A DNA stretch of 64,000 nt from Yuukianura sp. NJ FZ-2021 (GCA_046563655.1 CM102288.1:1922001-1986000); one strand, 5' to 3'. Shown: positions 571 to 60,647, counted from the stretch's first letter. Translations and numbers: made by a program. The notes: generated from the sequence alone by a model not told the origin.

Positions 571-2592
571 TTACGTGGGAATGGCTGTTTGATTAGTGTC
601 ATCCGTTTCTGAAGTGTCGTGTCGCAGTTGATGATAAGATGTCCACACTCCGTCGCCCGAAAAATGAAACTCTTTTTCTAAATTGTACAAAACGAGATGC
701 AAAAAGTTCGGATGATTTTTGATTTCTGCGGTATTTTCAGTCAGGACTTCTTGCACAGCTTCCTTGACGTTGTCCAGAGGATACAACATAATTGGAATTG
801 CTATGCTCAGCTGATTTCGAGTAAACGATTTTTGCAGAAACTGGAGCACTTCCTTGGCATAAACTGTAGGAATATGAAGCCAATGTGGATGAACCGACAG
901 GGCTTCTCTGACTTCAGCCTTGGGAAGATCCAAACTTTTAGCTATGAGATGGACAAGGTCACCCCCTTTGTTTCTCAGGTCACCTTTCTTGACATAATTA
1001 GAAAACTTCTCTTGATCCAATGATAATACGTGAAGCGATACTCCAGTGACGTCCAGGGCAGAGAAGTAGTCTAAACGTTCTTTCACTTTTTGAAAGTAGT
1101 ACAAAATGCGGCAAAATCTGGGATGAGATTTGAGAGACAAGAGGGCTGGCGTTTCGTCGACGATTTTGAGCCGTGCAGCGACTGTTTCGGCTGATAGGGT
1201 AAAAATTTCTGGACATTTTGCTAAAGCTTCGTCCGTTATTCCATGCTCTTTAAACATTTGTTTCATGCGACACAGCGTGTCGGCTTTGACTAGCATGATC
1301 TTTGGTCTACGAATTCCAAGCTGCTGGATTGGAATTCCGCCGAGAGTTTGCACGGTGTTGAGAATCGCTTTGAAGTTTTCTGGATCTCCTTGCAGTAGAG
1401 TGCCGTTTCTCATAATCTGGAAAAACGAAACTCAAATTGAAAAAATACAAATGGAAATGTTAGTTGAGTTTGACCTTTTGCGGCGTGAAGTTGAGATCGG
1501 TACGAAGGATTTTGATACTCGCAGTGATCCACTCGTAACATCGATGCTTGATTCGAGGGTTTTGGGAAATCAGTCTTCTGCACTCTTTCACCTCTGTTCC
1601 TAACTTGGACGCGAGGAAGTGTTCCAGGATTAGTATTCGGAGGGACATCAGGCTCAACTAAAAAAAACAATCAAAGAATGCTGGATGCTAGCAATATTCT
1701 AATTACTAATGTCATGTACTTGTACCTCATTGGGATCCTGTGGAAGAGCTGATAGAATGTTGGATCGAATTTGACTCGGAAGTTCCAGTAAATTGAAATA
1801 CCGTTCAATGACACCTTCATTTTCTGGAATAAGTCCAGATTTCCGTATAACTCCTAAGCTTTTGCGTGAAATTGATGGGTAACTGGATTTTCAAAATAAG
1901 TGAATCCCATTTATACTCAACTTGCAGTGTCTTGTGTACTTCAGGTTAGTTGACAATCAATTGATTCCTTACGTGGCGAGCAAGAATGGACGAATTGACG
2001 TAAATCCAGTTTCCTTCATGATCCGGATGTAGTTTTCGAGGGCACCCGAACGCAGTGTTAATAAATCCGGGCATTCTTGTAATGCGCCTATTGGAAACCC
2101 GTATTTCTGTTTAAAACGAAAATCAATTAGTAATTGAATTAGGATTTTGCGAGAAAGTTAGAAGAAATGGAAACTTACGACGAGAACATCCCTTGTTCTT
2201 GCCATTTGTGCCTCATTGAGATTTGCTATGGCAGACTTTTTCAGCAGGACGCGATTGACTGATGCTTCTGGGAAATCTGTAAATTAATCAGCAAAGTTTC
2301 GTTTAGACGGTTGTCGTTAAGAAATACACCGATAATTGTTCGTAAAAGACATACCAAATGTCTTTTCCATGCTTTCTTTCCATGTCTTGGTCTTAACGTT
2401 GGCGTTAGAGTGATATGCGGATCCTGTCGTAGTTGATTTATTGGGTGCTGTTGAATTTAGAGAATTAGTGTCCAAAATTTGATCTTGACCTCTGACCCCG
2501 ACTTCATAAACTCGTAGTACTTCACAATGTGCAAGTCCTCTGTAATCAATCATGGCACGTATCGCCTTTCTCAAAGACTTCCTCAGAATCAT
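571..2592 (-). CDS. MTERF-family mitochondrial transcription termination factor-like protein, multi-exon
   Basis: ATG at 2592 starts a basic, presequence-like N-terminus (MILRKSLRKAIRAM). Several short exons precede a long terminal exon with mTERF-like repeats (LAKCPEIFTLSAETVAARL, IRRPKIML). Exon borders are approximate. Confidence 0.6.
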
Positions 2593-3079
2593 CACTTCAT
2601 TAAAACAAAATACGTTAATTAACTAATCAATTAAAATGGTTCCGTTTCGGTAGTAAAAATAAGAAAGAAATTTGTCTTACCAATTTAATATTGTGGGATT
2701 TGAACTTTTCCCGCGTCAAAATCAAAACATTTCAAACTCATAGAAAAAGTAAACCTCAATATTATGGTCATAATGCATTATAGTTAATTAAAGTTAATTA
2801 ATTAACAATTAATTAGTTGCGTAGGAATTTCAATAACTTGGATTTAATATATTTAAATTAATTTTCCCCTGTGTTAATCTTATTACTTTTGCCCAGCCCT
2901 GATGTGGAGAACGGGAGCTGTGGAGTAGCTTTTAGTACGGCCAAATTGTTGACATTGTAAAATAAAAGTTTAGTCACATTTTCTAATTAAAAATTGCAAA
3001 CTTTTCTGATAAAGTTAATTAATTTTTCGTTTCTGATTGACTAATTTACACTTAGAACAAGTAATTAGCGTAGAGCTCC

Positions 3080-3481
3080 ATGGCCGGAAGTCGTCTTGAA
3101 CGAATTGGGACCATTTTTTCAAGGTAACATTTAGTTAAACATTTAAAACCCACAGTTAAGTAAAATGAAGTGTAGACTGAACAAAAACGATGGTTGCTTC
3201 ATTTCAGGGCTACTGGACTTCTCCGGAGCGAAGTCGTCAGGTACGACGATCGACCAATTTGGTATGACGTGTACAGAGTGTTTCCACCAACGTTAGAGCC
3301 GATGTTCGCTCGGGAGCCAGTTCTGCCACCAGGAGTTCCTCAACAAATCCCAGAGATCTTTTACGAAGAAGACAAGGAAAGGGCGTTGGCATCTTCCTCA
3401 AAACCTACGACTACCACGAAACATCTTACGAAAGAAGATATACTACGATTCCAGCAGCCGAAGCAACTCGAGACCAAGTAA
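3080..3481 (+). CDS. mRpS23: Mitochondrial ribosomal protein S23 (exons 3080-3123, 3208-3481)
   Basis: The spliced product MAGSRLERIGTIFSR/ATGLLRS...RPIWYDVYRVFPP...IPEIFYEED matches the MRPS23 signature. Confidence 0.9.
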
Positions 3482-3769
3482 AGAAGTACATTAATCTAAA
3501 TTATCACGAATGTGAAGATTTTAGAGCATCAGATTTTTTAGTGGTAGAAGTAGAATTTAAATAGAAGTAGATCTGGAGATGAAGTCAACTGAGTACTTGT
3601 AAAGGGGTGTACGACCCCATTTTACTTGTCATTTAAATGACTAAATCGTACAAGCCGACAGCGAATTTAAGTTAATCTAAACATTAGGAGTACTGTACTG
3701 TGTTTAATGCGCGTAAACGAGAAACCGGAATAATAGAAACTCTGCTGGGATTTCTTTCCTCTGGACAAT

Positions 3770-6199
3770 TCAACTTCCAAGTTGGTTTTCTTTTTCTGGA
3801 AGAGAAATGTCGTAGTCGTCAAAGTCGTTGAGTCTGCTCGGCAGTTCCGGTGGGGGGAAGGACTTTGTGAGGACGTAAACTGCTGCTTCGTAAGTAGACA
3901 TCATGATGGCCGTATTCGGGATTTGCCTTATAAGCTAAACATTCAAAACATTTTAAATATAGTCCACAAATCCAATTTCATTTTGATGTCAGCGTGTAAA
4001 TTTTTGTCTTACTTGAGTTGCAAGGCCGCGATACAGTCCTCGGTATCCCTCTTCCTTTCCGACGAGGCAAAGAGTCTGAATGAGGTGTCTGTACTTGTGA
4101 CCTTCTTCACGCAGCCTTGTCCTCGCGACTTCTGCAAATTGACACAAGAATTTAATTAACAATTGACCATGATGTTTGCTTTTGCTTCTCAACACTTGAG
4201 GCTTCACTTACCATGAGGATAGGCAACGCAAGATGCAATCGTTTTTGAAAAGGCCCCAGCAGCCATAAATTGTAAAAAGTCTTTCGAAGTTTTCTCTTGT
4301 GTGAGAGGGTCGTTGTCATCGAGAGCGTTATTGGCTGCATTCCATTCTTGCAACTTCTTCTTCACGGCTTCGTATATAACAAAATGGACGACAGTCTCTG
4401 AGATACCCATGTACGACGCAGAAATTCCTTTGTAGAAACCTAGGATTCCGCCTTGGGCGTAAATGCGACGAATAGTCTCTTTCGTTCCGACGGCTCCACC
4501 CTCCAATTGAAGTCGTGTCTTCACGAACCAAATTGGATTGGTCGCTGTGCTAGCCACGAATCCTGGAAAAAATCAAACAAAACATGAGCCACATGCGCCA
4601 AAATGAGATACATGAGCCAAAATGAGCTAAATGAGCAATATCAGCAGCTCATTCCTGTCTCATGATCTGTTTTTAGTCCATTTCAGTACTGCTAACCTGC
4701 TGTGCCGGCTGAGCAAATGTGAACGACTGGGGAGTCGGGAGGTAACATTTCATTAAATTGTCGCTTGGCCGTGGAATAAGCGGAGAAGTAAATTGCTCTC
4801 GACGGTGCGACTCCGACCAAATTCATGCCAAGTCCAGAGAACAAGGCCCTTGGCCCCTCCTTCTCAATGATCGTCCTGAAACCAAAACAAAATTGCATGT
4901 TAAGCTATTTTTGTCCAGAAGTCAACCCCCGCATCTTCTGTAACTGTAAATAGCCATAGTAGGAGTGTATAAATAGAAAAGTTCGACGAATCCTCTCTTG
5001 GGTCACTTCAGAATCAATGGATAACAAAAATTGTGGAAAATTTCCAAGTTGGTTAAGTCCACTAAAAGTTAGTTCAAATAAGCAGAAATTTCTGGTTTAG
5101 GAAGTTTTTTAAAAACAAGTTGTTTGTCATGTTTCAAGTAAAACTGAATGATAACCTCGCGCACCTACTTTTTCCATCGAAATCTGGAATTAATCAGAAA
5201 AGTGTCTCTTCATGCACAAGTTATGAACAGAACAGCATCTCTGTTTTTCAGCCTCATGACTCAAGTTACACGAAGATGAATGATTACAAGACATGAAATT
5301 AACGGAAGCAAACTGGAAAATTATGAAAAATATCCAGTAAAATCCAGAATTACAGTTGCAAAACTTATCTCTTAAGCGAGGCAAACTCATAATCTAAATT
5401 GCTCTAGTTTAATTTTCTTATTTTCTCCTCCTGGACAAATCATGGTTTCACACGAATACGAAACGACATTTTTCTTTTCAGTAATAAAACGCGTGGACGT
5501 TTTCAGACTAAAAAATGAATCATTGAATTTGATTAAGCCAATTTTGCTTTATGAGAACCAAATTAGCATAATGGGATCCATATCCATTTGATCTTGGAAA
5601 AACTATGACGAAAAACGTAAATTTTAATGGAACGAAGAAATGAGTGACTATAACCATTCCACTGCACCGACCACTACGAAACCAGATGACCTTGAAATGT
5701 AGCCAAGAATAAAAGGAAGCCAGGGTTGTTGCTGTTATGTTTTCGGAAATTGAATTTTTCAATGTAAAACTCACCGAAGACATTGGATGAGCCCGATTTT
5801 ATTTGCTGAAGGTTGTTGAATCATTGGATTCCCATGATGAGGAACTGCCAGTATTTGTGCTGACCTGCCACAAGAGGCGCATGTAGAAAAAGGACGACTA
5901 GATGGCGGATTCTTTCCGGAGGTATAAAGTTTAGAGGACGTCGAAGGTGACGATGACAAAGGTGCGCCTTTGCCAAAAGCTGGATTGGATGACTGGAGTC
6001 GTGTTTTGACAACTTCCAGGGGACATGTCAATACTGCTCCGTTCGTTCCAGCGATTCTAATGAACACAAAAGAAAACATCATTGATTTACCCAAATAGTC
6101 AACAAAGAGACTAGAATTGATTAATGAGTTGAATTATTTAGGTGTGCTAGGTAGTTACCCTCCAGCAACAAGATGAATGATAGTGTCCCGTTGAGACAT
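3770..6199 (-). CDS. SLC25A36: Mitochondrial pyrimidine nucleotide carrier (SLC25A33/SLC25A36, Rim2), multi-exon
   Basis: Starts [14 protein letters not shown]. Three carrier motifs: [22 protein letters not shown] and [11 protein letters not shown]. Also [10 protein letters not shown] and [13 protein letters not shown] at 3770-3772. Confidence 0.9.
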
Positions 6200-7091
6200 T
6201 TTAGTTTCTGGACTTTAAAAATACTTTCCAGGCTATGAGCCAATGACGGTAACAACGTTAGCGAAAATGGAAACGAAAATTTCCAAAGAAATTCGCAATT
6301 CTGTATCCAACAGGGGGTGACTTGAAGTGCCTGATGAAAATTCCTTGAGATCTTGCTCTATGCAGTCCAGTAATCGGGAACAAAAAAAAAACGGAGAATT
6401 TGCACGTAGGCAAGGAAAAAGTCTCGAATGTCTCTTATTGCGTAGTCGATCTCTTGAAGTGTTGTGTAAAATTTACAATCTGTGCCAAATGTTAGGATTG
6501 GCTAACGGCATGCTCCGAGCAAATTCTTTTTCATGTGACCTTCCAGTTGTCCAGCGTACTGACCTTCCTGGTACCGACAATGACGACAATATTTCCTGGA
6601 TATGTTGCACTAACTTTGTTTTAGTTAATTCCTAGGCCGTATTTGAAGGTTGAGTAGATTAGACAACGGTCCGTTAGAATAGAACCCAAGAATGTTAATG
6701 TTGGAAAGTTTACACGTTCACCGTGAACGGTTTACGTCGTATCCACGTTGGTAAATAATATTGCAAATTTACGCGAGTGCTAATTTGGGAGCAAAGTCCA
6801 CAAATTTCGTTCACGTTTCGCGAAGGTGATTGACGGCTGGTGTATTTTTAATTGTTGTGCACTTCGGCTACTTACGTAAATTGTTAATTTAATGGTAATG
6901 TAATCCAGTCTGTGAGTGTGAATACTACAAGGAGTTGGTCACAAAAATAAGCCTAAGCATTTAGTTTCTGTTATTGAAGTCGGTTGGCCATGGGCTAGGT
7001 AATGTAAGCTCCGGTTTCTCTACACAATTATCTTAATCTTGGTATTGAAGTTAAGTGGAGAAGATGTAAATAAGCAATTAACTTAACATTC

Positions 7092-7473
7092 TGTAACGCC
7101 CTCCGACGCTAGAACAACTGAAAACAATCCTCACCAGACTCTCTCCGAGCCCACAGGCTCCCAGACCCAAATAACCTCCAGAAATCACCACTGCAAAACC
7201 ATCGACGAATAATAAATATAGGTATATATTTATTGAGTCGATGAATAATATACACTGAAACAACTGCTAAATACTGATCATAACTACTGATCGCTCCAAC
7301 TCACTCAATAGCCAATCCAAGACTAAACTCTATCTACACAAATCTCCTCTCTCTCCTCAACCACACCGCCTCTCAAATCTCCCGCAACTCATCTCTGCTA
7401 AATCTCAATAGCAAAATAATATATACAATAACCTAAACAATAACTGAATAACCTAATGCGCAGACGCCCAACA
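7092..7473 (-). repeat. 3' LTR (382 bp)
   Basis: Minus strand reads TGTTGGGCGTCTG...GGGCGTTACA. No differences from 13014-13395 seen by eye. Confidence 0.95.
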
Positions 7474-7484
7474 CATTCCCCTCC
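7474..7484 (-). promoter_or_regulatory. Polypurine tract (PPT)
   Basis: GGAGGGGAA followed by TG, immediately 5' of the 3' LTR on the minus strand. Confidence 0.85.
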
Positions 7485-7525
7485 AGATGGTGGGTGTCGA
7501 GCCTGACGACCCTGGCCGACATCCA

Positions 7526-9400
7526 TCAGCGACGAACTCGGAAGGCGGCTGCAGCATCCGCACCTCTCTGCTCCCTGCGCTCACGGCGACGAACTTGACG
7601 CTCATCATAGTCTCCACGACGAGCGATGTTGATCCTTGCATTGTCTTTCTTCCTCCTCCACTGGTACCTGGCGATGGCCTCAGCACGAGTATATCCATGA
7701 CGACGATACCAACACTGAACCCACGAATGACGAGACGAACCGCAATGTCCACAACGGTCTGGATTTGGTACATGTCTGGGCTGTGGAATGTCAACTTCAA
7801 CGACTACCCTCCCAGGCACTGCTACAACTTCCGGTACTTCCTCCAACTGGTCCAAATCCTCCTGTGGTACGGAAACCTCGAGCACGTCATCCTCAGTATC
7901 TTCATCGTCAGTCTCTTCTACTATGTCACACTCCACATCCGTCATGTCACTATCTGCCTCTGCATCATCCACTGGTTTGTCCTCTTCCATGGGCTCATCG
8001 GAGACGTCTGACAAAATCGAAGTATCCGAAATGACGGATAACTTATCGTCTTCCTCCACTGGCACACTTTCACTAATATTTACACTGGAACTTGCAGTAG
8101 GCACAACGGTATTTTGAACCTGGCTCTGCACTGTAGGGACAATCATAGGGACATCCCAATCATCGTAGTCCACTGGCACTAAAGTAGCACTTGAACTGAC
8201 GGAAGCCGATGAATCGACTCCCATTTGACCCACATTTACAGTCTGACTTTCAGCTGTAATTTTTAGTAACTTATAAAGATGATCACTGCTAAGATCCACT
8301 TTTCCAAGGATCTTAGTCAATTCTGATGAATCAACTGGTAACTTCATGGCAATATTGACACATAACTCGTCGATAATCACATCACTTGGTTGACGATCAC
8401 AAGAACGAGCTACTTGTGATCTCCACTCAAAAATCTTCAAAAGTACAGCCGAATTTACACCACCCTGAGCAAACCGCTGAACAAGTTCAAATGACGTAGG
8501 GTGTTGTTTGATTTTATACATCTTTTTACACATCACATTGCACTTGTCCACTGCACTTTTCCACTTATCACTATACTGAACGAATGGGTACTTAACTCTA
8601 AGTACTCTCCACACTCGCAAAAGTAGATGAGTATCGCTTCGAGCGTACTCTAGCATATCCGAATGCATTCTTGTAAGGGGCCGAATACGAAAATCACTCA
8701 ACTGACAATCCTTCGGAACTGACACTTCCGAACCAAGATAAAAATGCACTAATTTGTCGAATCCAATTGGTTGACCACCACAAAACTCTTGATGTACCAC
8801 TTGAACGTCAATCATTCCAACCATGAAAACTTGAAATTGAATCTGTAGAGCAAGTAGATCATTGTCACTTCCATGAAAAACTTTCAGATACTCACTGTCA
8901 TGGAAAAACTCTTTGAGTTGATCACACTGATGCACCAACTCGAAAGTATCGATGAGATAATCACCTCCACAAACTGATATTTGTAAAAGTGAGATATATC
9001 GGTCGATATATCCCTTATCAAAACTCATCTCGATATCCACCGCCATCACATCACATTCACGAAGATGCTTCAGCATTCGTCTAAATCCACGTTCACTGTC
9101 CACTATAACAAAGCCAATGTCCTTACGACGATCCTCGTACCACTTTCCCTTAGCTTCAGTATGTTTAGTCTTCATAAACTCATCTAACTTCCAGGAATCA
9201 ACATCTTCCACAAATGGATGAACACTATGAGGAAACACTGGCACCGAATTACGAAGCCTAGCATGACGAAGATAAACTGGGTCAGATTCCTGTGGTCGCT
9301 CTTTAGCTTGCCCATACTTACGCAGACACAAATTTCTTTTCTGTAGGAAGCTTAGGACCCTCTCCTTAGCACTACTCACTTCAAGAATCGATCCAGGCAT
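7526..9400 (-). CDS. Element ORF in the env position: RRP6/EXOSC10-like DEDDy 3'-5' exonuclease, HRDC, acidic linker, CCHC zinc knuckle and Arg-rich tail (624 aa from the first ATG)
   Basis: ExoI AVDIE, LLQIS...DYLIDT, ExoII KVFHGSDND, QLSDFRIRPL and ExoIII MLEYARSDTHLLL parallel RRP6 (AVDLE, LMQIS, KVFHGADSD, QLADWRIRPL, YARDDTHYLL). HRDC-like IFEWRSQVARSCD...IAMKLP. CGHCGSSRHSWVQC at 7712-7753. No introns. Confidence 0.9.
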   Translation of the reverse strand: MPGSILEVSSAKERVLSFLQKRNLCLRKYGQAKERPQESDPVYLRHARLRNSVPVFPHSVHPFVEDVDSWKLDEFMKTKHTEAKGKWYEDRRKDIGFVIVDSERGFRRMLKHLRECDVMAVDIEMSFDKGYIDRYISLLQISVCGGDYLIDTFELVHQCDQLKEFFHDSEYLKVFHGSDNDLLALQIQFQVFMVGMIDVQVVHQEFCGGQPIGFDKLVHFYLGSEVSVPKDCQLSDFRIRPLTRMHSDMLEYARSDTHLLLRVWRVLRVKYPFVQYSDKWKSAVDKCNVMCKKMYKIKQHPTSFELVQRFAQGGVNSAVLLKIFEWRSQVARSCDRQPSDVIIDELCVNIAMKLPVDSSELTKILGKVDLSSDHLYKLLKITAESQTVNVGQMGVDSSASVSSSATLVPVDYDDWDVPMIVPTVQSQVQNTVVPTASSSVNISESVPVEEDDKLSVISDTSILSDVSDEPMEEDKPVDDAEADSDMTDVECDIVEETDDEDTEDDVLEVSVPQEDLDQLEEVPEVVAVPGRVVVEVDIPQPRHVPNPDRCGHCGSSRHSWVQCWYRRHGYTRAEAIARYQWRRKKDNARINIARRGDYDERQVRRRERREQRGADAAAAFRVRR

Positions 9401-9477
9401 GTTGAGAATGACGGAAGCCAAACACTTATGACTCCCAATTGACACTTCACTAACAAGTATACACTGATGATTGAAGT

Positions 9478-10908
9478 TTAAGTAGTACTCACTTTGTTTG
9501 TTCGATAACCAGCTAAAGTCCGGTAGTTAACACGTTGTATGTTTCTTGTTGTTCGCCTCACCGGTAGAGTGTCTGGGTCTGGCGATTCCTCTGACACGAC
9601 AGACACCAACGGTACTTTGAACTGCGACTTGCGAACTGTATATGGCTTAAGCTCAGACGCGTGACGCTTACCAAAATACGTTCTTTCCGGTAACCTAACC
9701 AATTTGAATGTCACTGGTGTCAAAATTTCCCTAATTTGAAATGGACCAACGAACCGATGTGACAATTTTTGCATAATTCCTTTGGCTTTATCCGACTGAA
9801 CATGACTCTTAGCTAACACAAAATCACCAACTTGAAACGTAGGTTCAATGTGACGCTGATCATAGTACTTTTTACTTGCATCATGAGCTTTTTGGATGTT
9901 TTGACGCACAAAACTAACAATGTCACTTAACTCTTTAGGAATGCTTGCTAAATCCACTGTTTCTGAATTAATTACACTTTGATCACTTTGTAAACTCCTG
10001 TCTATGGGTAATGGTATCTCACGTCCTAAATTCAATAATGAAGGTGTCACTTTAGTTGAACTATGCACTGTAGTTCTGAGCGCTAAAGCGAACTTTTGAA
10101 GGTGTATATCCCAACTTCTATGGTTTGCACCTACATAGGCCTGTAACATTGGTTTCAAATCACGATTAACTCTTTCAACTGAGTTGGCCTGAGCATGATA
10201 TGGACTGATGCACACATGATTGATTTTCCAGTCTTTGGTCATTTTAGCCATTGTTTTAGAGATGAACTGACTTCCATTGTCTGACACTATAGTTTTCACT
10301 GTTCCATATCTGCAGAATATCTCATCCACTAGCACTTTCACTACTTTATTCGCTGTTGCTTTTCGAATTGGAAAAAGTTCTACCCACTTGGAGAGGTCAT
10401 CTTCAACGACGAACAAATATTCATTTCCATTTGAACTACGGGGTAAAGGACCTAAGAAGTCCACATAAATCTTCTCAAAAACTTGGGTAGCAGGCTTTGC
10501 TCCCTGAAGTAACCCGAATGGTTTATGATTAACACTTTTCACTACTTGACAAACTGGGCATGAACGCACATATTCACTAATGTCCTTGTTCATATTATGC
10601 CAGAAAAATCTCTTTTTAATTTTCACTTTTGTTGCTTTGATCCCTAGATGAGCCGCTTCTGGAACATCATGTAGATTTTGCAAAATTTTAGGGATTAAGA
10701 CCTTTGGAACCACTGTCACTAGTAACTCACTTTGTTGAGTTTGAGATACGCTGCGAGCTGCGCCATTTGAGGCTAGGACAACGTTCTCTAGAGAAATGTC
10801 AGAAGCTTGGGGCCCCGTTTCTGCATCTCTCTCTTCTTCGGGATATCCGCAGACTCCCACAGTGGTGCGAAAGCCAAAGTCTTTGACTCTCTTTTTGCAC
10901 CAAACCAA
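9478..10908 (-). CDS. Gypsy-type integrase ORF (no ATG before the zinc finger)
   Basis: HHCC (LHDVPEAAHLG...CPVC), DDE (YVDFLGP, VSDNGSQF, SVERVNR), GPY/F motif FVGPFQI and a basic tail. No YxDD or RNase H motifs. Confidence 0.95.
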   Translation of the reverse strand: MVWCKKRVKDFGFRTTVGVCGYPEEERDAETGPQASDISLENVVLASNGAARSVSQTQQSELLVTVVPKVLIPKILQNLHDVPEAAHLGIKATKVKIKKRFFWHNMNKDISEYVRSCPVCQVVKSVNHKPFGLLQGAKPATQVFEKIYVDFLGPLPRSSNGNEYLFVVEDDLSKWVELFPIRKATANKVVKVLVDEIFCRYGTVKTIVSDNGSQFISKTMAKMTKDWKINHVCISPYHAQANSVERVNRDLKPMLQAYVGANHRSWDIHLQKFALALRTTVHSSTKVTPSLLNLGREIPLPIDRSLQSDQSVINSETVDLASIPKELSDIVSFVRQNIQKAHDASKKYYDQRHIEPTFQVGDFVLAKSHVQSDKAKGIMQKLSHRFVGPFQIREILTPVTFKLVRLPERTYFGKRHASELKPYTVRKSQFKVPLVSVVSEESPDPDTLPVRRTTRNIQRVNYRTLAGYRTNKVSTT

Positions 10909-11297
10909 AACTGCTTTGACTTTAATCGAAGCACAATGTCGTTCTGAGCAATGTAGTCAGAACCCAAAACACACGGAACAGGAAGAGATTCTGCCACGAA
11001 GAACCTAAACCTAACTGTTCTCTCACCAATTTTTATGTACACAAATGTGAAACCACTTAAACGTAGCTCCTGATTGTTCATTGTCGTTGTAGACTTATTT
11101 TCTAATGGCACTACAACTGAATTTAATTTTTTACACAAATTTCTTTCAATTAGTGACTGTGAACATCCCGTATCAAAAATAGCCAAGAACTTTGACTGGT
11201 ACGCGGTCACACTCACAAATGGTATGGTTTCGTCCGAGATTTGAATTAATGTTGGGTGAATGATGGACGACTCGTCATTCCCCTCCTTTAGTTTAAC
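10788..11297 (-). CDS. Retropepsin aspartic protease, in the -1 frame relative to gag
   Basis: AIFDTGCSQSLI active-site motif and VLGSDYI. The frame is open from the slippery site at 11297 to TAG at 10788. Confidence 0.9.
   Translation of the reverse strand, partial: VKLKEGNDESSIIHPTLIQISDETIPFVSVTAYQSKFLAIFDTGCSQSLIERNLCKKLNSVVVPLENKSTTTMNNQELRLSGFTFVYIKIGERTVRFRFFVAESLPVPCVLGSDYIAQNDIVLRLKSKQFWFGAKRESKTLAFAPLWESADIPKKREMQKRGPKLLTFL
11228..11297 (-). promoter_or_regulatory. Probable -1 ribosomal frameshift signal (G_UUA_AAC plus a pseudoknot)
   Basis: Heptamer GTTAAAC at 11297-11291 directly before the gag TAA. After a 7-nt spacer there is a stem GGGGAATGA/TCATTCACCC, whose loop TCGTCC is complementary to the downstream GGACGA. 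Confidence 0.75.
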
Positions 11298-12808
11298 TTT
11301 TCTTTCAAATTTGTAGAAGTAGAAGGCCCTTGAGCCTGGTTCACATCTTCACTTTGAGCCACAGCTTTTTTAGCCGCCTCACTGAATGATCCTAGGGCCG
11401 CACCCATGTTCGTAGGACACTGAAACTGTCGATGACCGTAACCACTACATTTGTAGCACTGTACGTCTTCTGGATTCACTGGCTGCGAATTACCATTCCC
11501 ACGACCATTACCACGACCACTGGAACTACCACCACGATTTCCACGATAACCACCTCTACCACGCTGCACTGACTGATTTTGATTTTGAACAGAACTGTCT
11601 GAAACAGAAGGTCTCTGATTTTGACCTTGACTTTGACCTTGATTCTGAACATCACCATGATTTGGGGGGAAGCCAGTGAACTGACTCCCATTAGTTGTCT
11701 GAACCGAGCTTTGCTCCTGGTTTTGATTATGGTAGCCACCTCTGCCACGATAATTTGAGCCACGGTAACCACCACTGTAATTTCCTCTTCCTCTGTAGTA
11801 ATTTCCATTATTTCCGTTATTTTTGTGGTTAGCACTAGAACTAGCACCATCACTTCCACTTTTTTCATTTTCTGAATTTTTAGATTCAACTTTCACAATT
11901 GGTGGCAACTTTGGGTATTTTTCACGATTAATTCGATCTTCGGCACTTAAATTAGCGTGAGCAACACGACACGCTTCAAACAATGACTCAACTGTAGGAA
12001 AACTGCCAGTACCTAGAGCTGTACGAAGTCTTGGGTATAGGGCCAGTTTTGCCCTCATAACAGCCTCAGCTGTTGTTTCATGTGGGTACACTAATTTAGC
12101 ACTGCGCACCATATCGTAGATGAAATGTTCAGTTGGTTCATGTAACTGTTGCCTTCGGGTGTGCAAGAGTCTAGTCCGCTCTGCCACATCCATCCAATTG
12201 TCGTACCGATCAATAAATGCATCTTTAAACTCATCCCACGTTGTCACTGTATTTAGAATATGCTCAAACCATGGCTGAGACTCACTTGGCAACACTGTTT
12301 TAACTAAGTACAAAAATTGCTGCTCTGAATGTCCTTGTGCTGTGTAGTACCTTTCTACATCAGCAAGGTATCCTGCCGCTGACATCTTCCTGGTGTCGAA
12401 TTTTGGAACTGGTAATTTTGATGACAACGAGGTAAACTTCACGTTCTTTAAGGCAGCAATCAGCGCCTCTGTCTGACTTTCACTTTCACTCACAGTGGAG
12501 GCCGCAGTAGCGACTCCCGTGGACACTCTGGACACTATTTTGTCTTCCACGCCTTTCATGGCTTTTGCTACCGCAGCAGCAACTATCTTGTCCACGTCAT
12601 CTTTACTGTATGTTGCCATTGTCGATGCACCCGCAGGAACTGACACTATAGCACTAGATGTAGGAGTTGGAGATACACTCGGAGAAGTTTTGCTTCTCAA
12701 GAACGGTCCTTCCGCGTCAGGAGATAGTCCCTCTACTTCCACGCCGAATGCGACTGATTTGTCGATTTTTAACTTGGAAAGTTCACTAGGAACTTTCTTT
12801 TCACTCAT
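11288..12808 (-). CDS. Gag (506 aa from ATG 12808)
   Basis: Retrotransposon capsid-like region (WFEH...TWDEFKDAFIDRY...RRQQLHEP), RG/N/Q-rich region and zinc knuckle CYKCSGYGHRQFQC at 11417-11458. Confidence 0.9.
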   Translation of the reverse strand: MSEKKVPSELSKLKIDKSVAFGVEVEGLSPDAEGPFLRSKTSPSVSPTPTSSAIVSVPAGASTMATYSKDDVDKIVAAAVAKAMKGVEDKIVSRVSTGVATAASTVSESESQTEALIAALKNVKFTSLSSKLPVPKFDTRKMSAAGYLADVERYYTAQGHSEQQFLYLVKTVLPSESQPWFEHILNTVTTWDEFKDAFIDRYDNWMDVAERTRLLHTRRQQLHEPTEHFIYDMVRSAKLVYPHETTAEAVMRAKLALYPRLRTALGTGSFPTVESLFEACRVAHANLSAEDRINREKYPKLPPIVKVESKNSENEKSGSDGASSSANHKNNGNNGNYYRGRGNYSGGYRGSNYRGRGGYHNQNQEQSSVQTTNGSQFTGFPPNHGDVQNQGQSQGQNQRPSVSDSSVQNQNQSVQRGRGGYRGNRGGSSSGRGNGRGNGNSQPVNPEDVQCYKCSGYGHRQFQCPTNMGAALGSFSEAAKKAVAQSEDVNQAQGPSTSTNLKEKLN

Positions 12809-13001
12809 GAATGAACTTTGACACAACGGAGGCCACTGTTAGTGACTCCCAGAATGAATAAATTGGCGAAAGCCGCTGTTAGCGACTCTCTTAGGTGATT
12901 TTTTAGTATACACACTTTTTTAGGCACAATTTTACACAATTTTTCTTACTTTTATCTTGTTTGACCTCTGGTGACCTCCAGGTCACTGGATCTGGACACA
13001 A

Positions 13002-13011
13002 ACGGTCGCCA
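13002..13011 (-). promoter_or_regulatory. Primer binding site, tRNA-Arg type
   Basis: TGGCGACCGT starts 2 nt after the 5' LTR end. It resembles the tRNA-Arg PBS of insect 412/mdg1-type elements (recalled, not aligned to this species' tRNAs). Confidence 0.75.
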
Positions 13012-13013
13012 TG

Positions 13014-13395
13014 TGTAACGCCCTCCGACGCTAGAACAACTGAAAACAATCCTCACCAGACTCTCTCCGAGCCCACAGGCTCCCAGACCCAAATAACCTC
13101 CAGAAATCACCACTGCAAAACCATCGACGAATAATAAATATAGGTATATATTTATTGAGTCGATGAATAATATACACTGAAACAACTGCTAAATACTGAT
13201 CATAACTACTGATCGCTCCAACTCACTCAATAGCCAATCCAAGACTAAACTCTATCTACACAAATCTCCTCTCTCTCCTCAACCACACCGCCTCTCAAAT
13301 CTCCCGCAACTCATCTCTGCTAAATCTCAATAGCAAAATAATATATACAATAACCTAAACAATAACTGAATAACCTAATGCGCAGACGCCCAACA
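13014..13395 (-). repeat. 5' LTR (382 bp)
   Basis: Direct repeat of 7092-7473, followed on the minus strand by the PBS. Confidence 0.95.
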
Positions 13396-15360
13396 ATTCA
13401 AGACATGAATGAGAACGAAGACCGACAAACCACTCGAACTTTAGAAGTAAACTGAACTCGCCTTGCCAATGTACTCGTATTGTCGTATTGTAACACACGG
13501 CACAGCATAGCATACCGAGGACTACTAGGCACTCCACCCGGCATAGGTTTTTGCTGCAGTGAGAAAGATAGCACGCTAATTTTCAATACTGTTTAGCAAC
13601 TAAGTTATCTACATAAAACTTATTTACTTATTTAATTTGCCTGGATGATTATTTGCACTCAAGAAATTATTATTAGTTTTTTTTTCATAATGTAGATTAT
13701 TTTCATAATGTAGTTTATTTTTTTCAACGTGCAGTTGTTGATTTTATTTTTGTCGCGTCACCTATGTTAGGTTGAAGTGAATCAAACGCAGACATAAATT
13801 AAATTGCACTTATTTTTGTGGTTGTAATACACACAAAAATTTCACCTCAATATTATGCGTCATGAAAGTTGGAATTTTGCATGTGTTTTGCATCAAAAGT
13901 CAAAACTTCAAACTTTTCTAGCGTTTTGAAGTTTGGAATTGAAATTGACTCTGCTAACTTCACATGACAAACTCCGATTGCCTGATGGAGTACACTACCC
14001 AGGGGGAGTATGGTAAATACCACCCACCAATTCTCGACAACAACAAAAACAACGCAATTTTGTCCAATCCTTTTAGCTTTGGTTTAAGCATTGGATTCAG
14101 AGGTGTCCCGTTATAGCATATGAAACTGTGTATCCTTGGGGAGACTTGCATACTTTCCATGTTTTCACTTTTCAATCACTGGGAACTGGGACACAAGACG
14201 ACGATAGCAACGCGTAAGAAAACTGAATGCTCTTCTGCCTGAAGGACTTTGTAATATAAATTGGTAAACCGCAAATGCTAATAATAGGTGTTAATCAACT
14301 GCGGTTGAGCTGGAGTACGGCAGACGGCAGAGTTGCTGGCCAACGGTAGGGTCCCATTGCCGTTATCGGTTTTGTTAAAAACGTTTGGCTGACTTGACAG
14401 ACTGCATCAACAGATCTCAGGTAGTTTATACCTTATGCGATATGTTTATGTACACATAACCTCGCCTGGTTTTTGCATGTTTACATTCCATCTGATTCTA
14501 ACAAGCTATTATCAGTGCTATGGTTGTACCCGAACGCTTTTACCTCTTGCGCGATCTCTGCCTCCACACTGAAATTCTATGCTAATGGTAGCACCAAAAT
14601 AATATATTCCTCTGAATTGCGTAACACAAGGCGTTATTTTATTTTTTGGCAGGACATTCAGTTGCTGTTTCTGGGTGAAGGAGAATCTGGTTCGAGAAGG
14701 AAGAATTTCTAAAGAAGTGGGTTCCCTGGCTGGCAGAAAGCTTCTGTCATTCGTCTCTAATACCGTCGACACGACTATCTTCTGGTCCAGTGTACACAAG
14801 GCGGAAGGCAGATATTGTTTTGCGAGCGAGGAGAGGAGAACTGAAAGTCGTGTGGATTTGCGAAATGTTGGGTGGGACTCGACCCACTTCAACTTCAGGT
14901 TCAACGATCAAAGGCAACCAGGACGGATCTGTGCCAAGGAAAAGGGAGCCCTTCGGAGGTTTCAGTTTCGAGTCTGAATCTCTACCAGATTTCAGTGAAT
15001 TTGAAGAGAACAGCTCTGAATCAGCCAAGGGTGGAGCAGAAAAAGCGTAAACTTGTGTGCACAAACATTTTCCGTGTTGATTGTGTTACTAACTAAGCTA
15101 ATTGGAACTTGTTTTTGTTTTTGCTGCCTTAACACTACTTTCTGTAGTTGGAACCTAACGTCGACGGGCAGCTAAACGTCAACGCAGTGTGCAGCTAAAT
15201 AGTTTTATAACGAAAGTATATTGTCGAAGTTCTTAAGTTGTTTTGCCAAATTACACATTCGCTATTTGATTTCGTGTGGAACTACTAACAAGAAACCAAA
15301 AGAGTGAACCAAGTGCCAAAAATTGGAGATTCAATTACTAAACAAAAGTCTGAATTTGAA

Positions 15361-60463: not shown

Positions 60464-60647
60464 TTCCGATCAGGATCAGCTCCGATCAAATTCTGATCAG
60501 TTCCGATCAACTTCTGATCAGTTCCGATCAAGTTCTGATTCTCTACGATCGTATTCTGATCGGATCCGCTCAAGTTCTGATCAATGAAGATTAAGCTATG
60601 TTCTTATTAAGTTCTGATCCCTTCCGATCAGTGATCAGTTCCGATCA
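60464..60647. repeat. Degenerate 10-11-bp GATCA-containing repeat array just 3' of the LRR gene
   Basis: Repeated TTC(C/T)GATCA(G/A) units. Confidence 0.75.

What the first reader, a model, noticed from the sequence alone, without database searches (positions are those of the whole stretch)
7526..9400. LTR element carries a captured RRP6/EXOSC10-like exoribonuclease with intact catalytic motifs in the env position
Seen: an intronless 624-aa ORF between the integrase and the PPT. All DEDDy residues are present (D-I-E at 9037-9029, HGSDND, YARSD at 8647-8633), followed by an HRDC-like domain; the RRP6 N-terminal PMC2NT domain is not recognisable. Known: exonuclease plus HRDC is the RNase D/RRP6 architecture, RRP6 acts in nuclear RNA surveillance, and other DEDDy nucleases (Nibbler/Mut-7) trim small RNAs. 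I recall DEDDy-type extra ORFs being reported in bdelloid rotifer LTR elements, so nuclease capture has precedent, but I know of no RRP6+HRDC version in an arthropod gypsy-type element. Inference: a retrocopied host surveillance enzyme kept by the element, acting as an anti-silencing factor, an exosome decoy, or a 3'-end trimming enzyme for the genome or primer. An intact frame despite strong divergence from RRP6 suggests purifying selection.
Basis: partly seen in the sequence, partly recalled or inferred. Interest (0 to 1): 0.93.

Follow-up and report, generated by a model that had tools for sequence, protein, structure and literature searches.

The report
Retrotransposon-borne RRP6-like exonuclease gene family
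A young gypsy-type jumping gene carries, behind its integrase, an intact gene for an RNA-trimming enzyme related to the cell's RRP6, and this is one member of a large, old family of such genes rather than a fresh theft from the host.

Summary
Window 7526-9400 (minus strand) is a 624-aa ORF with a DEDDy 3'-5' exonuclease domain, an HRDC domain and no PMC2NT. It lies between the integrase and the PPT/3' LTR of a Ty3/gypsy element (7092-13395). The element has identical 382-bp LTRs and an ATTC target duplication.

- This copy has no reverse transcriptase or RNase H.
- The ORF ends in a CCHC zinc knuckle and a basic helix.
- The ORF is not a private capture.

About 47 of the 152 database proteins compared share its architecture and fall outside canonical RRP6/EXOSC10 in three trees. 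Forty of 48 rows keep all five catalytic residues. All three genomic contexts I could inspect put the gene just behind a gypsy integrase: this window, a complete metagenome element, and a springtail gene model. All 15 named family proteins come from the springtail Orchesella dallaii.

DEDDy third ORFs in LTR elements are already published for bdelloid rotifers. I found no report of an RRP6+HRDC+knuckle form.

Best reading: an exosome-independent accessory 3'-5' exoribonuclease of the element. Its target is unknown, and expression could not be tested. I rate it a new variant of a known kind, of moderate to high interest.

The parts
7088..7091 (.). Target-site duplication ATTC, copy next to the 3' LTR
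   Evidence: Alignment of both LTR flanks. The same four letters are the overlap of the empty-site joint.
7092..7473 (-). 3' LTR of the minus-strand element, 382 bp with TG..CA ends
   Evidence: 100% identical to 13014-13395.
7476..7484 (-). Polypurine tract GGAGGGGAA, 2 nt before the 3' LTR
   Evidence: Read from the sequence. Its function is inferred from position.
7526..9400 (-). ORF3, 624 aa: RRP6-like exonuclease with HRDC, acidic linker, CCHC knuckle and basic helix
9116..9400 (-). ORF3 residues 1-95: N-terminal helices with the R-P-Q and H-P motifs shared with the RRP6 segment between PMC2NT and EXO; no PMC2NT
   Evidence: P36 is P in 85 of 102 canonical rows and H61/P62 in 87 and 94 of 102 canonical rows; RNase D has gaps there. 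pLDDT is high for residues 8-80. No Pfam family at E<=1.
8597..9109 (-). ORF3 residues 98-268: DEDDy exonuclease domain. D122/E124 map to 9037-9029, D181 to 8860-8858, Y252/D256 to 8647-8633
   Evidence: Pfam PF01612, E 9.5e-25. Catalytic columns checked.
8303..8449 (-). ORF3 residues 318-366: HRDC domain; the model's helices continue to residue 393
   Evidence: Pfam PF00570, 22.8 bits against a 23.8 cutoff. Supported by PDB alignments and by the fold.
7763..8221 (-). ORF3 residues 394-546: acidic linker predicted to be disordered, not alignable among relatives
   Evidence: pLDDT below 50 for residues 394-546. This region of alignment A2 is gappy.
7712..7753 (-). ORF3 residues 550-563: C-x2-C-x4-H-x4-C zinc-knuckle pattern
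   Evidence: C550, C553, H558 and C563 are invariant in the 7-sequence alignment. The pattern occurs in 16 of 35 family rows of 450 aa or more and in 0 of 95 canonical rows. Pfam zf-CCHC does not detect it in the window copy.
7532..7687 (-). ORF3 residues 572-623: arginine-rich C-terminal helix
   Evidence: AlphaFold predicts a helix at 572-623 with pLDDT about 75-89.
9401..9477 (-). 77-nt spacer between the integrase stop and the ORF3 ATG. The ORF3 frame is open from 9526 and is -1 relative to integrase
   Evidence: I saw no X-XXY-YYZ slippery heptamer by eye.
9478..10956 (-). Integrase reading frame (H2C2 zinc finger, rve core, Tf2-1-type SH3)
   Evidence: Pfam. 48% identical to L001 pol residues 811-1213.
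10720..10892 (-). Junction where RT and RNase H should lie (about 670 aa in the relative L001) and are missing
   Evidence: tblastn of L001 pol matches only pol 9-136 (window 11285-10893) and pol 811-1213 (window 10719-9505). No RVT or RNase H family in Pfam.
10788..11348 (-). Aspartyl protease reading frame
   Evidence: Pfam gag-asp_proteas and Asp_protease_2. 29% identical to L001 pol 9-136.
11288..12838 (-). gag reading frame (ATG at 12808) with a CCHC knuckle
   Evidence: 36% identical to L001 gag over 259 aa, E 2.5e-60.
12994..13011 (-). Primer-binding-site candidate starting TGGCGACCG, 2 nt after the 5' LTR
   Evidence: Read from the sequence. The matching tRNA was not identified; no tRNA gene lies in the window.
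13014..13395 (-). 5' LTR
13396..13399 (.). Target-site duplication ATTC, copy next to the 5' LTR

Best explanation
ORF3 is the third gene of a Ty3/gypsy-type LTR retrotransposon lineage. It is not a host gene and not a recent capture. It descends from eukaryotic RRP6. It keeps the segment just before the nuclease domain, the DEDDy exonuclease domain and the HRDC domain. It has lost PMC2NT, the Rrp47/Mtr4 docking domain. Everything after the HRDC is replaced by an acidic disordered linker, a retroviral-type CCHC zinc knuckle and an arginine-rich helix.

Shown here: the architecture, the fold, the intact catalytic residues, the linkage to the element, the existence of a diverse family, and the recent insertion of this copy.

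Inferred:
- The protein is an active 3'-5' exoribonuclease that works on its own, outside the exosome.
- It is brought to RNA by the HRDC and the nucleocapsid-like knuckle and basic tail.
- It is made from its own ATG on a subgenomic or spliced transcript.
- It serves the element as an accessory factor acting on RNA 3' ends.

My best guess for the target is RNA associated with the element's own ribonucleoprotein. That could mean trimming or removing 3' tails or fragments that interfere with replication, or destroying host small-RNA precursors that pair with the element. I weigh those two about equally, and neither was tested.

The window copy itself lacks RT and RNase H. It can only have moved, or move again, with enzymes supplied by full-length relatives.
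For: Identity and fold:
- Pfam exonuclease E 9.5e-25 plus HRDC.
- Best solved relatives are EXOSC10/RRP6 at E about 5e-21, against RNase D at 4.6e-9.
- AlphaFold model: mean pLDDT 76, residues 8-393 confident.
- The 12 best Foldseek PDB matches are all RRP6 catalytic cores, E 6e-21 to 1e-17.

Part of the element:
- The ORF lies inside identical LTRs with a TSD, PBS and PPT.

Family:
- Of 152 database proteins compared (150 best representatives plus 2), 47 group with the window ORF outside a canonical RRP6 clade of 105. The branch is 100* in FastTree.
- IQ-TREE with LG+G4 places 44 family rows against 30 canonical rows on one branch, SH-aLRT 94.
- With the LG+C20 mixture model on 33 rows, the canonical rows are again one side of a branch (SH-aLRT 90). 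The window sits in a 9-row family clade at 98*.
- Among the first 75 proteins scanned with Pfam, 0 of 34 family rows carry PMC2NT against 22 of 41 canonical rows.
- In that scan the exonuclease bit scores do not overlap: 44.5-113 for family rows, 134-180 for canonical rows.

Constraint:
- 40 of 48 family rows keep D-E-D-Y-D. Two more are fragments lacking those columns.
- The nuclease, HRDC and knuckle align across the family, while the linker does not.
- A C-terminal CCHC occurs in 16 of 35 family rows of 450 aa or more and in 0 of 95 canonical rows.

Linkage to the element elsewhere (3 of 3 contexts I could inspect):
- This window.
- Metagenome contig L001, which has gag, pol with PR-RT-RH-IN, then ORF3, then an LTR.
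- Orchesella dallaii protein P0011. Its first 145 residues are 34% identical to the window integrase C-terminus (E 7e-23), directly ahead of the exonuclease.

Recent activity:
- LTRs are identical at 382 of 382 positions.
- Contigs of three runs of one sample and of one run of a second study join 7087 to 13396 with the four TSD letters shared, as an empty site would.
- Many contigs 85-99% alike cover the element, including ORF3. One piece covers 8232-9450 with 84 differences and no gaps.

Weak hint of constraint among copies:
- One search printed only 40 of 777 variant sites. In ORF3, 5 of the 8 printed are synonymous. In the integrase frame, 9 of 12 are synonymous.
Against: - No RNA run holds the sequence, so expression, the transcript form and the start codon are untested.
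- Six of the 46 family rows that cover the catalytic columns have substitutions there. One is L001's own ORF3, P0004, with G in place of the ExoI glutamate. Catalysis is therefore not kept in every copy. Some of these may simply be dead copies.
- Only 3 of the 48 family rows have a known genomic context. The other 45 could include host paralogues.
- With the mixture model and RNase D as outgroup, the family is an unresolved comb rather than a resolved clade. A single origin is not shown, and long-branch effects are possible.
- The window ORF's median identity to family rows (28.7%) is no higher than its median identity to canonical rows (28.6%) over the nuclease and HRDC region.
- Pfam does not recognise the window's knuckle, and its HRDC score is 1 bit below the cutoff.
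- This copy lacks RT and RNase H. Its ORF3 may be intact only because the copy is young.
Confidence: 0.78

Rival explanations
1. Recent capture: this element picked up a retrocopy of its present host's EXOSC10 mRNA.
For: The ORF has no introns and is RRP6-like from the pre-nuclease segment to the HRDC.
Against: The highest identity to any of 105 canonical RRP6 rows is 33%. Canonical rows exclude the ORF in three trees. The same gene sits in the same place in L001 and in an Orchesella gene model, with divergence like that of gag. The host's own EXOSC10 could not be compared, because no genome is held.
Confidence: 0.03
2. Several independent captures: different gypsy lineages each acquired an RRP6 fragment, and fast evolution makes them cluster artificially.
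For: With the mixture model the family is an unresolved comb next to the long RNase D branch. Family rows have long branches, and the program flags odd composition for the window ORF. The bdelloid paper infers at least two acquisitions of DEDDy ORFs, by Juno and by Vesta (passage of PMC5408684).
Against: Family rows share the same N-terminal boundary. W70 is W in 40 of the 51 rows counted (three of which were later reassigned to canonical), against F, L or Y in canonical rows. The same acidic-linker-plus-knuckle tail occurs in 16 of 35 long rows. The LG+G4 and FastTree analyses place the family on one side of a branch.
Confidence: 0.15
3. Non-catalytic role: the protein acts as an RNA-binding adaptor or competitor, like the inactive DEDD relatives EXD1, Maelstrom or Egalitarian, and not as a nuclease.
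For: Six of 46 family rows have altered catalytic residues, including L001's ORF3. A knuckle and a basic helix would suffice for RNA binding. Egalitarian and EXD1 structures appear among the lower fold matches.
Against: The window copy and 39 other rows keep all five catalytic residues across about 28% median identity. That is hard to explain without selection on catalysis.
Confidence: 0.1
4. Passenger without function: ORF3 is a neutral hitch-hiker, and its open frame here reflects only the youth of this insertion.
For: The identical LTRs mean there has been little time for decay. This copy is already defective for RT and RNase H. The bdelloid study found no clear departure from neutrality within genomes (passage of PMC5408684).
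Against: Conservation follows the domains, and the catalytic residues persist across a family as divergent as gag.
Confidence: 0.06

Closest known systems
DEDDy-type exonuclease ORF3 of bdelloid rotifer LTR retrotransposons (Juno, Vesta) and Athena/Terminon elements (Rodriguez, Kenefick and Arkhipova 2017, PMC5408684; I read passages only)
   Same: An extra ORF downstream of pol in LTR retrotransposons encodes an RNase D-like DEDDy exonuclease. The TE-borne ORFs are more like each other than like cellular homologues. They have no TM or coiled-coil env features. A Cys-His-Cys motif is noted in some. Two family rows here (P0075, P0079) show the D-E-E-D change that the paper reports.
   Different: The named relatives here are from a springtail, not rotifers. 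Here there is an explicit RRP6-type pre-nuclease segment, an HRDC domain and a C-terminal CCHC knuckle with a basic helix. The paper's text never mentions HRDC (0 occurrences). Direct homology could not be tested, because the bdelloid sequences are not on hand.
RRP6 / EXOSC10, the nuclear exosome exonuclease
   Same: The segment before the nuclease domain, the DEDDy exonuclease domain and the HRDC domain. These give the best sequence and fold matches.
   Different: No PMC2NT. The C-terminal part is unrelated: acidic linker, knuckle and basic helix. The ORF falls outside the canonical clade. It is encoded inside a retrotransposon.
Bacterial RNase D (E. coli rnd, PDB 1yt3)
   Same: A DEDDy nuclease followed by an HRDC, in a stand-alone enzyme without an exosome.
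   Different: Weaker match: E 4.6e-9 by sequence and 6.7e-15 by fold. RNase D lacks the N-terminal RRP6-type segment; it has gaps at P36, H61 and P62. No second HRDC was detected in ORF3.
Kinetoplastid RNase D-type exonucleases with a CCHC zinc finger (T. brucei RNase D, PDB 7c42-7c45; their uridine-tail trimming role is recalled, not checked here)
   Same: A stand-alone DEDDy exonuclease combined with a CCHC finger. An Atlas cluster from Euglenozoa carries PF01612 in 100% of members and zf-CCHC in 61%. The T. brucei structures are fold matches at ranks 18-27.
   Different: They are cellular genes and are much shorter (381 aa in the Atlas cluster). The Atlas score is low (0.81), and it is a lead only.
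env genes of insect errantiviruses (third ORF of gypsy-like elements)
   Same: The same place in the element, between the integrase and the 3' LTR.
   Different: No env family, membrane or fusion features were found. The whole folded part is a nuclease.

Membership tests
RRP6/EXOSC10 | DEDDy 3'-5' exonuclease domain with all five catalytic residues | tested here: met
   PF01612, E 9.5e-25. D122, E124, D181, Y252 and D256 align with the catalytic columns.
RRP6/EXOSC10 | HRDC domain after the nuclease | tested here: met
   PF00570 at 22.8 bits, 1 bit under the cutoff. PDB alignments reach residue 368 for yeast Rrp6 (359 for human EXOSC10). The fold matches RRP6 cores that include the HRDC.
RRP6/EXOSC10 | N-terminal PMC2NT domain (Rrp47 binding) | tested here: not met
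   No PF08066 hit in the ORF or in residues 1-100 at E<=1. 0 of 34 family rows carry it, against 22 of 41 canonical rows.
RRP6/EXOSC10 | C-terminal exosome-associating region | tested here: inconclusive
   Sequence matches to RRP6 chains stop at about residue 370-383. What follows is a disordered acidic linker, a knuckle and a basic helix. That region is poorly conserved even among true RRP6 proteins, so its absence by sequence is not decisive.
RRP6/EXOSC10 | Placement inside the canonical RRP6 clade | tested here: not met
   Canonical rows form one side of a branch that excludes the ORF: 100*, 94, 90.
RNase D | DEDDy domain followed by two HRDC domains, with no eukaryote-type N-terminal segment | tested here: not met
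   Only one HRDC stretch was found. The N-terminal RRP6-type motifs are present, whereas RNase D has gaps there. The match is weaker than to RRP6.
Ty3/gypsy LTR retrotransposon | Direct LTRs with TG..CA ends, target-site duplication, PBS and PPT | tested here: met
   Identical 382-bp LTRs and an ATTC duplication. TGG-starting PBS candidate and a purine tract.
Ty3/gypsy LTR retrotransposon | gag, then pol in the order protease, RT, RNase H, integrase | tested here: not met
   In this copy gag, protease and integrase are present, but RT and RNase H are absent. The related element L001 has the full order PR-RT-RH-IN. The lineage therefore meets the feature, and this copy is a defective member.
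LTR retrotransposons with a DEDDy exonuclease ORF3 (bdelloid Juno/Vesta type) | Separate ORF downstream of pol encoding a DEDDy exonuclease | tested here: met
   and for L001.
LTR retrotransposons with a DEDDy exonuclease ORF3 (bdelloid Juno/Vesta type) | Sequence kinship with the Juno, Vesta or Athena exonuclease ORFs | not testable with these tools
   The bdelloid sequences (GenBank and Repbase entries named in PMC5408684) are in none of the collections I could query by name.
Retroviral or errantiviral env | Env glycoprotein family or membrane-fusion features in the third ORF | tested here: not met
   Pfam finds only the nuclease and HRDC. The confident part of the model is an RRP6-like fold and the rest is a disordered acidic linker. 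I ran no dedicated signal-peptide or TM predictor.

The most novel reading that the evidence does not exclude
A whole lineage of gypsy-type retrotransposons in soil arthropods carries, as a standard third gene, an exosome-independent RRP6 derivative fitted with a nucleocapsid-like zinc knuckle. On this reading the enzyme is a transposon-encoded counter-defence nuclease. It would destroy or over-trim the host's small-RNA precursors or tRNA fragments that target the element. That would be the first nuclease-type silencing suppressor known from an animal retrotransposon.
Probability: 0.15. Interest if true: 0.85.

Novelty: new variant of a known kind. Interest (0 to 1): 0.6.

Why it matters
Accessory genes show what a retroelement needs beyond gag and pol. 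A DEDDy nuclease as a third gene had been described only in bdelloid rotifers, with no known role.

Here the same idea appears in a different form, in elements whose only named relatives are springtail genes. This form has an RRP6-type core with HRDC, a nucleocapsid-like zinc knuckle and a basic tail. It belongs to a large, divergent family that mostly keeps its catalytic residues. At least one copy inserted so recently that the empty site still appears to be present in the sequenced sample and in a second study.

That makes the question testable: what does an RNA 3'-5' exonuclease do for a retrotransposon? The protein is small and folds confidently. It has clear catalytic residues to test, and natural active and inactive variants exist.

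It also warns annotators. Gene models named 'ribonuclease D', '3'-5' exonuclease domain-containing' or 'HRDC domain-containing' may be transposon genes. This applies to springtail genomes and to metagenome gene calls labelled 'ribonuclease D'.

Tried and rejected
- Whole genome of the window: none is held. I could therefore run no tBLASTn for further copies, no copy count, no comparison with the host's EXOSC10 and no dN/dS.
I then used the single protein P0004, which returned one contig, L001.
- Viral-contig scans. The window ORF gave only a 27-residue match in the acidic linker (L002), which I treat as spurious. P0032, P0058 and P0007 gave nothing.
- Search for longer fused forms (pol-exonuclease) with A2: none at E<=1e-10 among proteins of 1419-4050 aa. 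The tool itself calls this weak evidence.
- The 'near' search with A2 returned only the same three proteins as before.
- Earlier findings of this scan: nothing by place, by sequence or by words.
- Sequencing runs: no RNA holder is listed, so nothing can be said about expression.
- The genome search on L001's record to obtain an RNase D outgroup: the record is not held. I used the annotated E. coli K-12 rnd gene instead.
- The mixture-model tree of 75 rows did not finish in two attempts. I replaced it with LG+G4 on the same rows and the mixture model on 33 rows.
- tRNA and Rfam scans of the window found nothing, so the primer tRNA remains unidentified.
- The protein Atlas returned only canonical RRP6-type clusters, all with scores under 0.9.
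- Frameshift fusion of integrase and ORF3: the ORF3 frame is -1 and overlaps the integrase frame by 49 nt, but I saw no slippery heptamer. In L001 the two frames are separated by stop codons. I rejected this as the general mode of expression.
- Splice signals. A CAG preceded by a pyrimidine run lies 19 nt before the L001 ORF3 ATG. There is no equally clear acceptor in the window. This stays unresolved without RNA.
- Repbase and GyDB could not be consulted.
Full report
**1. What is in the sequence**

The window holds one LTR retrotransposon on the minus strand, at 7092-13395 (6304 bp).
- Its two LTRs (7092-7473 and 13014-13395) are identical at all 382 positions. They begin with TG and end with CA, and are flanked on both sides by ATTC.
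- Read 5' to 3' on the minus strand, the 5' LTR comes first. A primer-binding-site candidate starting TGGCGACCG follows, 2 nt after it.
- Next come a gag frame with a CCHC knuckle (12838-11288) and an aspartyl protease frame (11348-10788).
- An integrase frame follows, with an H2C2 finger, an rve core and a Tf2-1-type SH3 domain (10956-9478).
- After a 77-nt spacer comes the 624-aa ORF of the finding (9400-7526).
- A GGAGGGGAA purine tract and the 3' LTR close the element.

No other copy of the element, and no other match to its proteins, lies in the window.

**2. The ORF itself**
- Pfam finds DNA_pol_A_exo1 at E 9.5e-25 (residues 98-268). It finds HRDC at E 8.7e-5 (residues 318-366; 22.8 bits, one bit under the curated cutoff).
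- Against all solved structures the best sequence matches are human EXOSC10 and yeast and trypanosome RRP6, at E 5e-21 to 2e-19. The yeast matches cover query residues 57-368 and the human ones 111-359. E. coli RNase D follows at 4.6e-9.
- An AlphaFold model built on a 25-sequence family alignment is confident for residues 8-393. It is disordered for 394-546 and moderately confident for a knuckle and a long helix at 547-623.
- The 12 best Foldseek matches in the PDB are all RRP6 catalytic cores, at E 6e-21 to 1e-17. RNase D comes next at 6.7e-15. Nibbler, EXD1 and Egalitarian rank lower.
- PMC2NT is absent.
- The N-terminal 95 residues are not novel sequence. Their R-P-Q and H-P motifs are shared with the segment of canonical RRP6 that precedes the nuclease domain, while RNase D has gaps at those columns. 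This points to a eukaryotic RRP6 ancestor rather than a bacterial RNase D.
- After the HRDC the protein departs from RRP6. It has an acidic, disordered linker, a C-x2-C-x4-H-x4-C knuckle (residues 550-563) and an arginine-rich helix.

**3. This copy is defective and young**
- The metagenome element L001 has a pol of 1214 aa with protease, RT, RNase H and integrase.
- Only pol residues 9-136 (protease) and 811-1213 (integrase) find a counterpart in the window. Just 173 nt separate the two matches. RT and RNase H are therefore missing.
- The identical LTRs and the target duplication show that this structure, or its parent, was inserted by retrotransposition not long ago.
- Public-run contigs support this. 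Three runs of one sample and one run of another study each contain a contig joining 7087 to 13396. The join skips exactly the element plus one ATTC, with four letters fitting both sides, as an empty site would. The tool did not report whether other letters lie between the two sides.
- Many contigs 85-99% alike cover the element, which indicates further copies.
- One contig of the second study lies on the protease side down to about 10867 and then runs on as unlike sequence. This is what a full-length relative would do, but I could not see its letters.
- All runs are DNA. No RNA holder was listed.

**4. The gene is one of a family**
- An exhaustive profile-free search of 1.84 billion representatives gave 3214 hits at E<=1e-3. 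The best is P0001, at E 3.5e-69 and 37% identity.
- Many of the 150 best start at their own N-terminus in register with the query and are about 480-660 aa long. Many also carry a C-terminal CCHC knuckle.
- I built trees of the 150 best hits, two proteins, the window ORF and E. coli RNase D.
  - FastTree: 105 canonical RRP6 rows form a clade at 100*, and the other 48 rows, window included, lie outside it.
  - IQ-TREE with LG+G4 on 75 rows puts 44 family rows and 30 canonical rows on either side of one branch, SH-aLRT 94. I dropped four fragments under 330 aa and used 30 of the 105 canonical rows (every third row of 550 aa or more).
  - The LG+C20 mixture model on 33 rows keeps the canonical rows together (SH-aLRT 90). 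The window sits in a 9-row family clade (98*) that includes P0011. The family as a whole stays unresolved next to the long RNase D branch.
- In the Pfam scan of the first 75 proteins, 0 of 34 family rows carry PMC2NT, against 22 of 41 canonical rows.
- In the same scan the exonuclease scores do not overlap: 44.5-113 bits for family rows and 134-180 bits for canonical rows. The window scores 87.8.
- The family is very divergent. Median pairwise identity over nuclease plus HRDC is 28%, against 44% among canonical rows.
- The window ORF is on average no closer to family rows than to canonical ones: 28.7% against 28.6%.
- The grouping therefore rests on the trees and on shared architecture, not on raw similarity. 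Several independent origins remain possible.

**5. Constraint**
- Forty of 48 family rows have D-E-D-Y-D intact, and two are fragments lacking those columns.
- Six rows have substitutions:
  - two with the third acid as E, the same D-E-E-D change reported for bdelloid elements;
  - one D-E-D-Y-E;
  - one with S for the first D;
  - one degenerate;
  - P0004, the ORF3 of L001, with G for the ExoI glutamate (alignment).
- Canonical rows are intact in 104 of 105.
- Conservation follows the domains. The nuclease, HRDC and knuckle align, and the linker does not.
- One search printed only 40 of the 777 variant positions. Eight fall in ORF3, and five of those are synonymous. Twelve fall in the integrase frame, and nine are synonymous. 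This is a small, selected sample and no more than a hint.

**6. Linkage to retrotransposons elsewhere**

I could inspect three genomic contexts, and all three show a gypsy integrase directly upstream.
- The window.
- L001, an 8283-bp metagenome contig with gag (858-2384), pol (2360-6004), ORF3 (6108-7760) and LTR repeats at 1-162 and 7996-8157.
- Orchesella dallaii protein CAL8079250.1 (P0011). Its first 145 residues are 34% identical to the C-terminal part of the window integrase (E 7e-23) and are followed by the exonuclease.

Between the window element and L001 the identities are as follows:

| Gene | Identity |
|---|---|
| gag | 36% |
| protease | 29% |
| integrase | 48% |
| ORF3 | 29-35%, depending on the alignment |

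The third gene has thus diverged in step with the rest of the element.

I looked up 30 family proteins by name.
- Eight have species-named cluster members, 15 proteins in all, and all come from Orchesella dallaii. One identical protein is listed under three accessions three numbers apart on a single contig.
- Four further clusters carry only the generic label 'ribonuclease D'.
- The rest come from metagenomes or run assemblies without names.
- The host of the window was not identified. The sequencing runs are coded, and I did not try to decode them.

**7. How it most likely works**

Shown: the architecture, the fold, the intact active-site residues, membership of the element and of a family, and recent insertion.

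Inferred from established knowledge of RRP6 and RNase D:
- The protein is likely a metal-dependent, distributive 3'-5' exoribonuclease whose HRDC helps to hold RNA substrates.
- It lacks PMC2NT, and nothing after the HRDC resembles RRP6. It should therefore act apart from the exosome, which weakens the 'exosome decoy' idea.
- The retroviral-type knuckle and basic helix resemble a nucleocapsid module. They suggest delivery to RNA, possibly the element's own ribonucleoprotein.
- ORF3 has its own ATG. In L001 it is separated from pol by stop codons, and no slippery site is visible in the window. A subgenomic or spliced mRNA is therefore the likeliest route of expression.

The target is open. I consider two possibilities about equally likely, at about one third each:
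- processing of RNA 3' ends within the replication complex;
- destruction or over-trimming of host small-RNA precursors or tRNA fragments that pair with the element.

The remainder goes to a non-catalytic RNA-binding role or no role at all.

**8. Comparison with what is known**
- Rodriguez, Kenefick and Arkhipova (2017, PMC5408684; passages read) describe RNase D-like DEDDy ORF3s in the bdelloid LTR families Juno and Vesta and in Athena elements.
  - They note that these ORFs resemble each other more than cellular homologues.
  - They state that such exonucleases had not been reported in retrotransposons before.
  - They leave the function open.
- A 2026 survey of env-carrying gypsy elements across metazoans, Collembola included, has no occurrence of 'exonuclease' (PMC13524379).
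- The RNase H-like superfamily classification mentions PF01612 only for cellular groups (PMC3985635, three passages).
- Six full-text searches completed; a seventh failed on term syntax. Apart from the bdelloid paper, none listed a report of an RRP6+HRDC third ORF in arthropod elements.
- Subscription journals, Repbase and GyDB were not searchable, so an existing database entry cannot be excluded.

**9. Verdict**
The gene is an old, diversified retrotransposon gene, not a fresh capture.
- The copy in the window is a young, RT-less derivative.
- The general phenomenon, a DEDDy nuclease as third ORF, is known.
- The RRP6-type form with HRDC, knuckle and basic tail appears to be undescribed. So do its breadth, its link to springtail-type genomes and its evident recent activity.
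- I rate it a new variant of a known kind, with interest 0.6.

Noticed in passing
window 10720-10892 and the whole element 7092-13395: The element has no RT or RNase H, yet it has identical LTRs, a target duplication and what appears to be a surviving empty-site allele in public runs. It looks like a non-autonomous derivative that was mobilised recently by enzymes supplied in trans, while keeping gag, protease, integrase and ORF3 open.
   Followed up: partly
window 9492-9487 and 9379-9374 (minus strand): Two perfect GTGAGT donor-like hexamers bracket the ORF3 start. One lies 8 nt before the integrase stop (AAA|GTGAGT) and one at ORF3 codons 8-9 (GAA|GTGAGT). With no RNA data, I cannot say whether either is used.
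   Followed up: no
L001 6108-7760 (protein P0004): The ORF3 of the otherwise complete metagenome element has glycine in place of the ExoI glutamate (D-x-G). This copy is probably catalytically impaired even though its frame is open.
   Followed up: partly
proteins P0075 and P0079: Two family members have D-E-E-Y-D, the same DEDD-to-DEED change that the bdelloid paper reports for its transposon exonucleases.
   Followed up: no
Orchesella dallaii proteins CAL8113214, 217, 220, 223, 226 (cluster of P0062): Identical or near-identical exonuclease proteins are listed at every third accession on one 5.4-Mb contig. This would fit a tandem array of three-gene units (gag, pol, ORF3). I did not inspect the DNA.
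   Followed up: no
protein P0155 (Orchesella dallaii, 1386 aa): A cluster mate of P0017 has the exonuclease and HRDC at its N-terminus, followed by about 1000 further residues with no Pfam family at E<=1. It is either a gene-model fusion or an extended form.
   Followed up: no
protein Atlas cluster, rank 17: A Euglenozoan cluster of 381-aa proteins combines PF01612 with zf-CCHC (61% of members). This is an independent cellular example of an exonuclease-plus-knuckle architecture.
   Followed up: no
window 60645-63584 (minus), 5771-6133 (minus), 571-1413 (minus): Host-type genes flank the element. There is a 979-aa leucine-rich-repeat protein with an LRRCT domain and an exon with a mitochondrial-carrier repeat. 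There is also a 280-aa ORF with no Pfam family. The element's nearest end (7092) lies about 1 kb from the carrier exon.
   Followed up: partly
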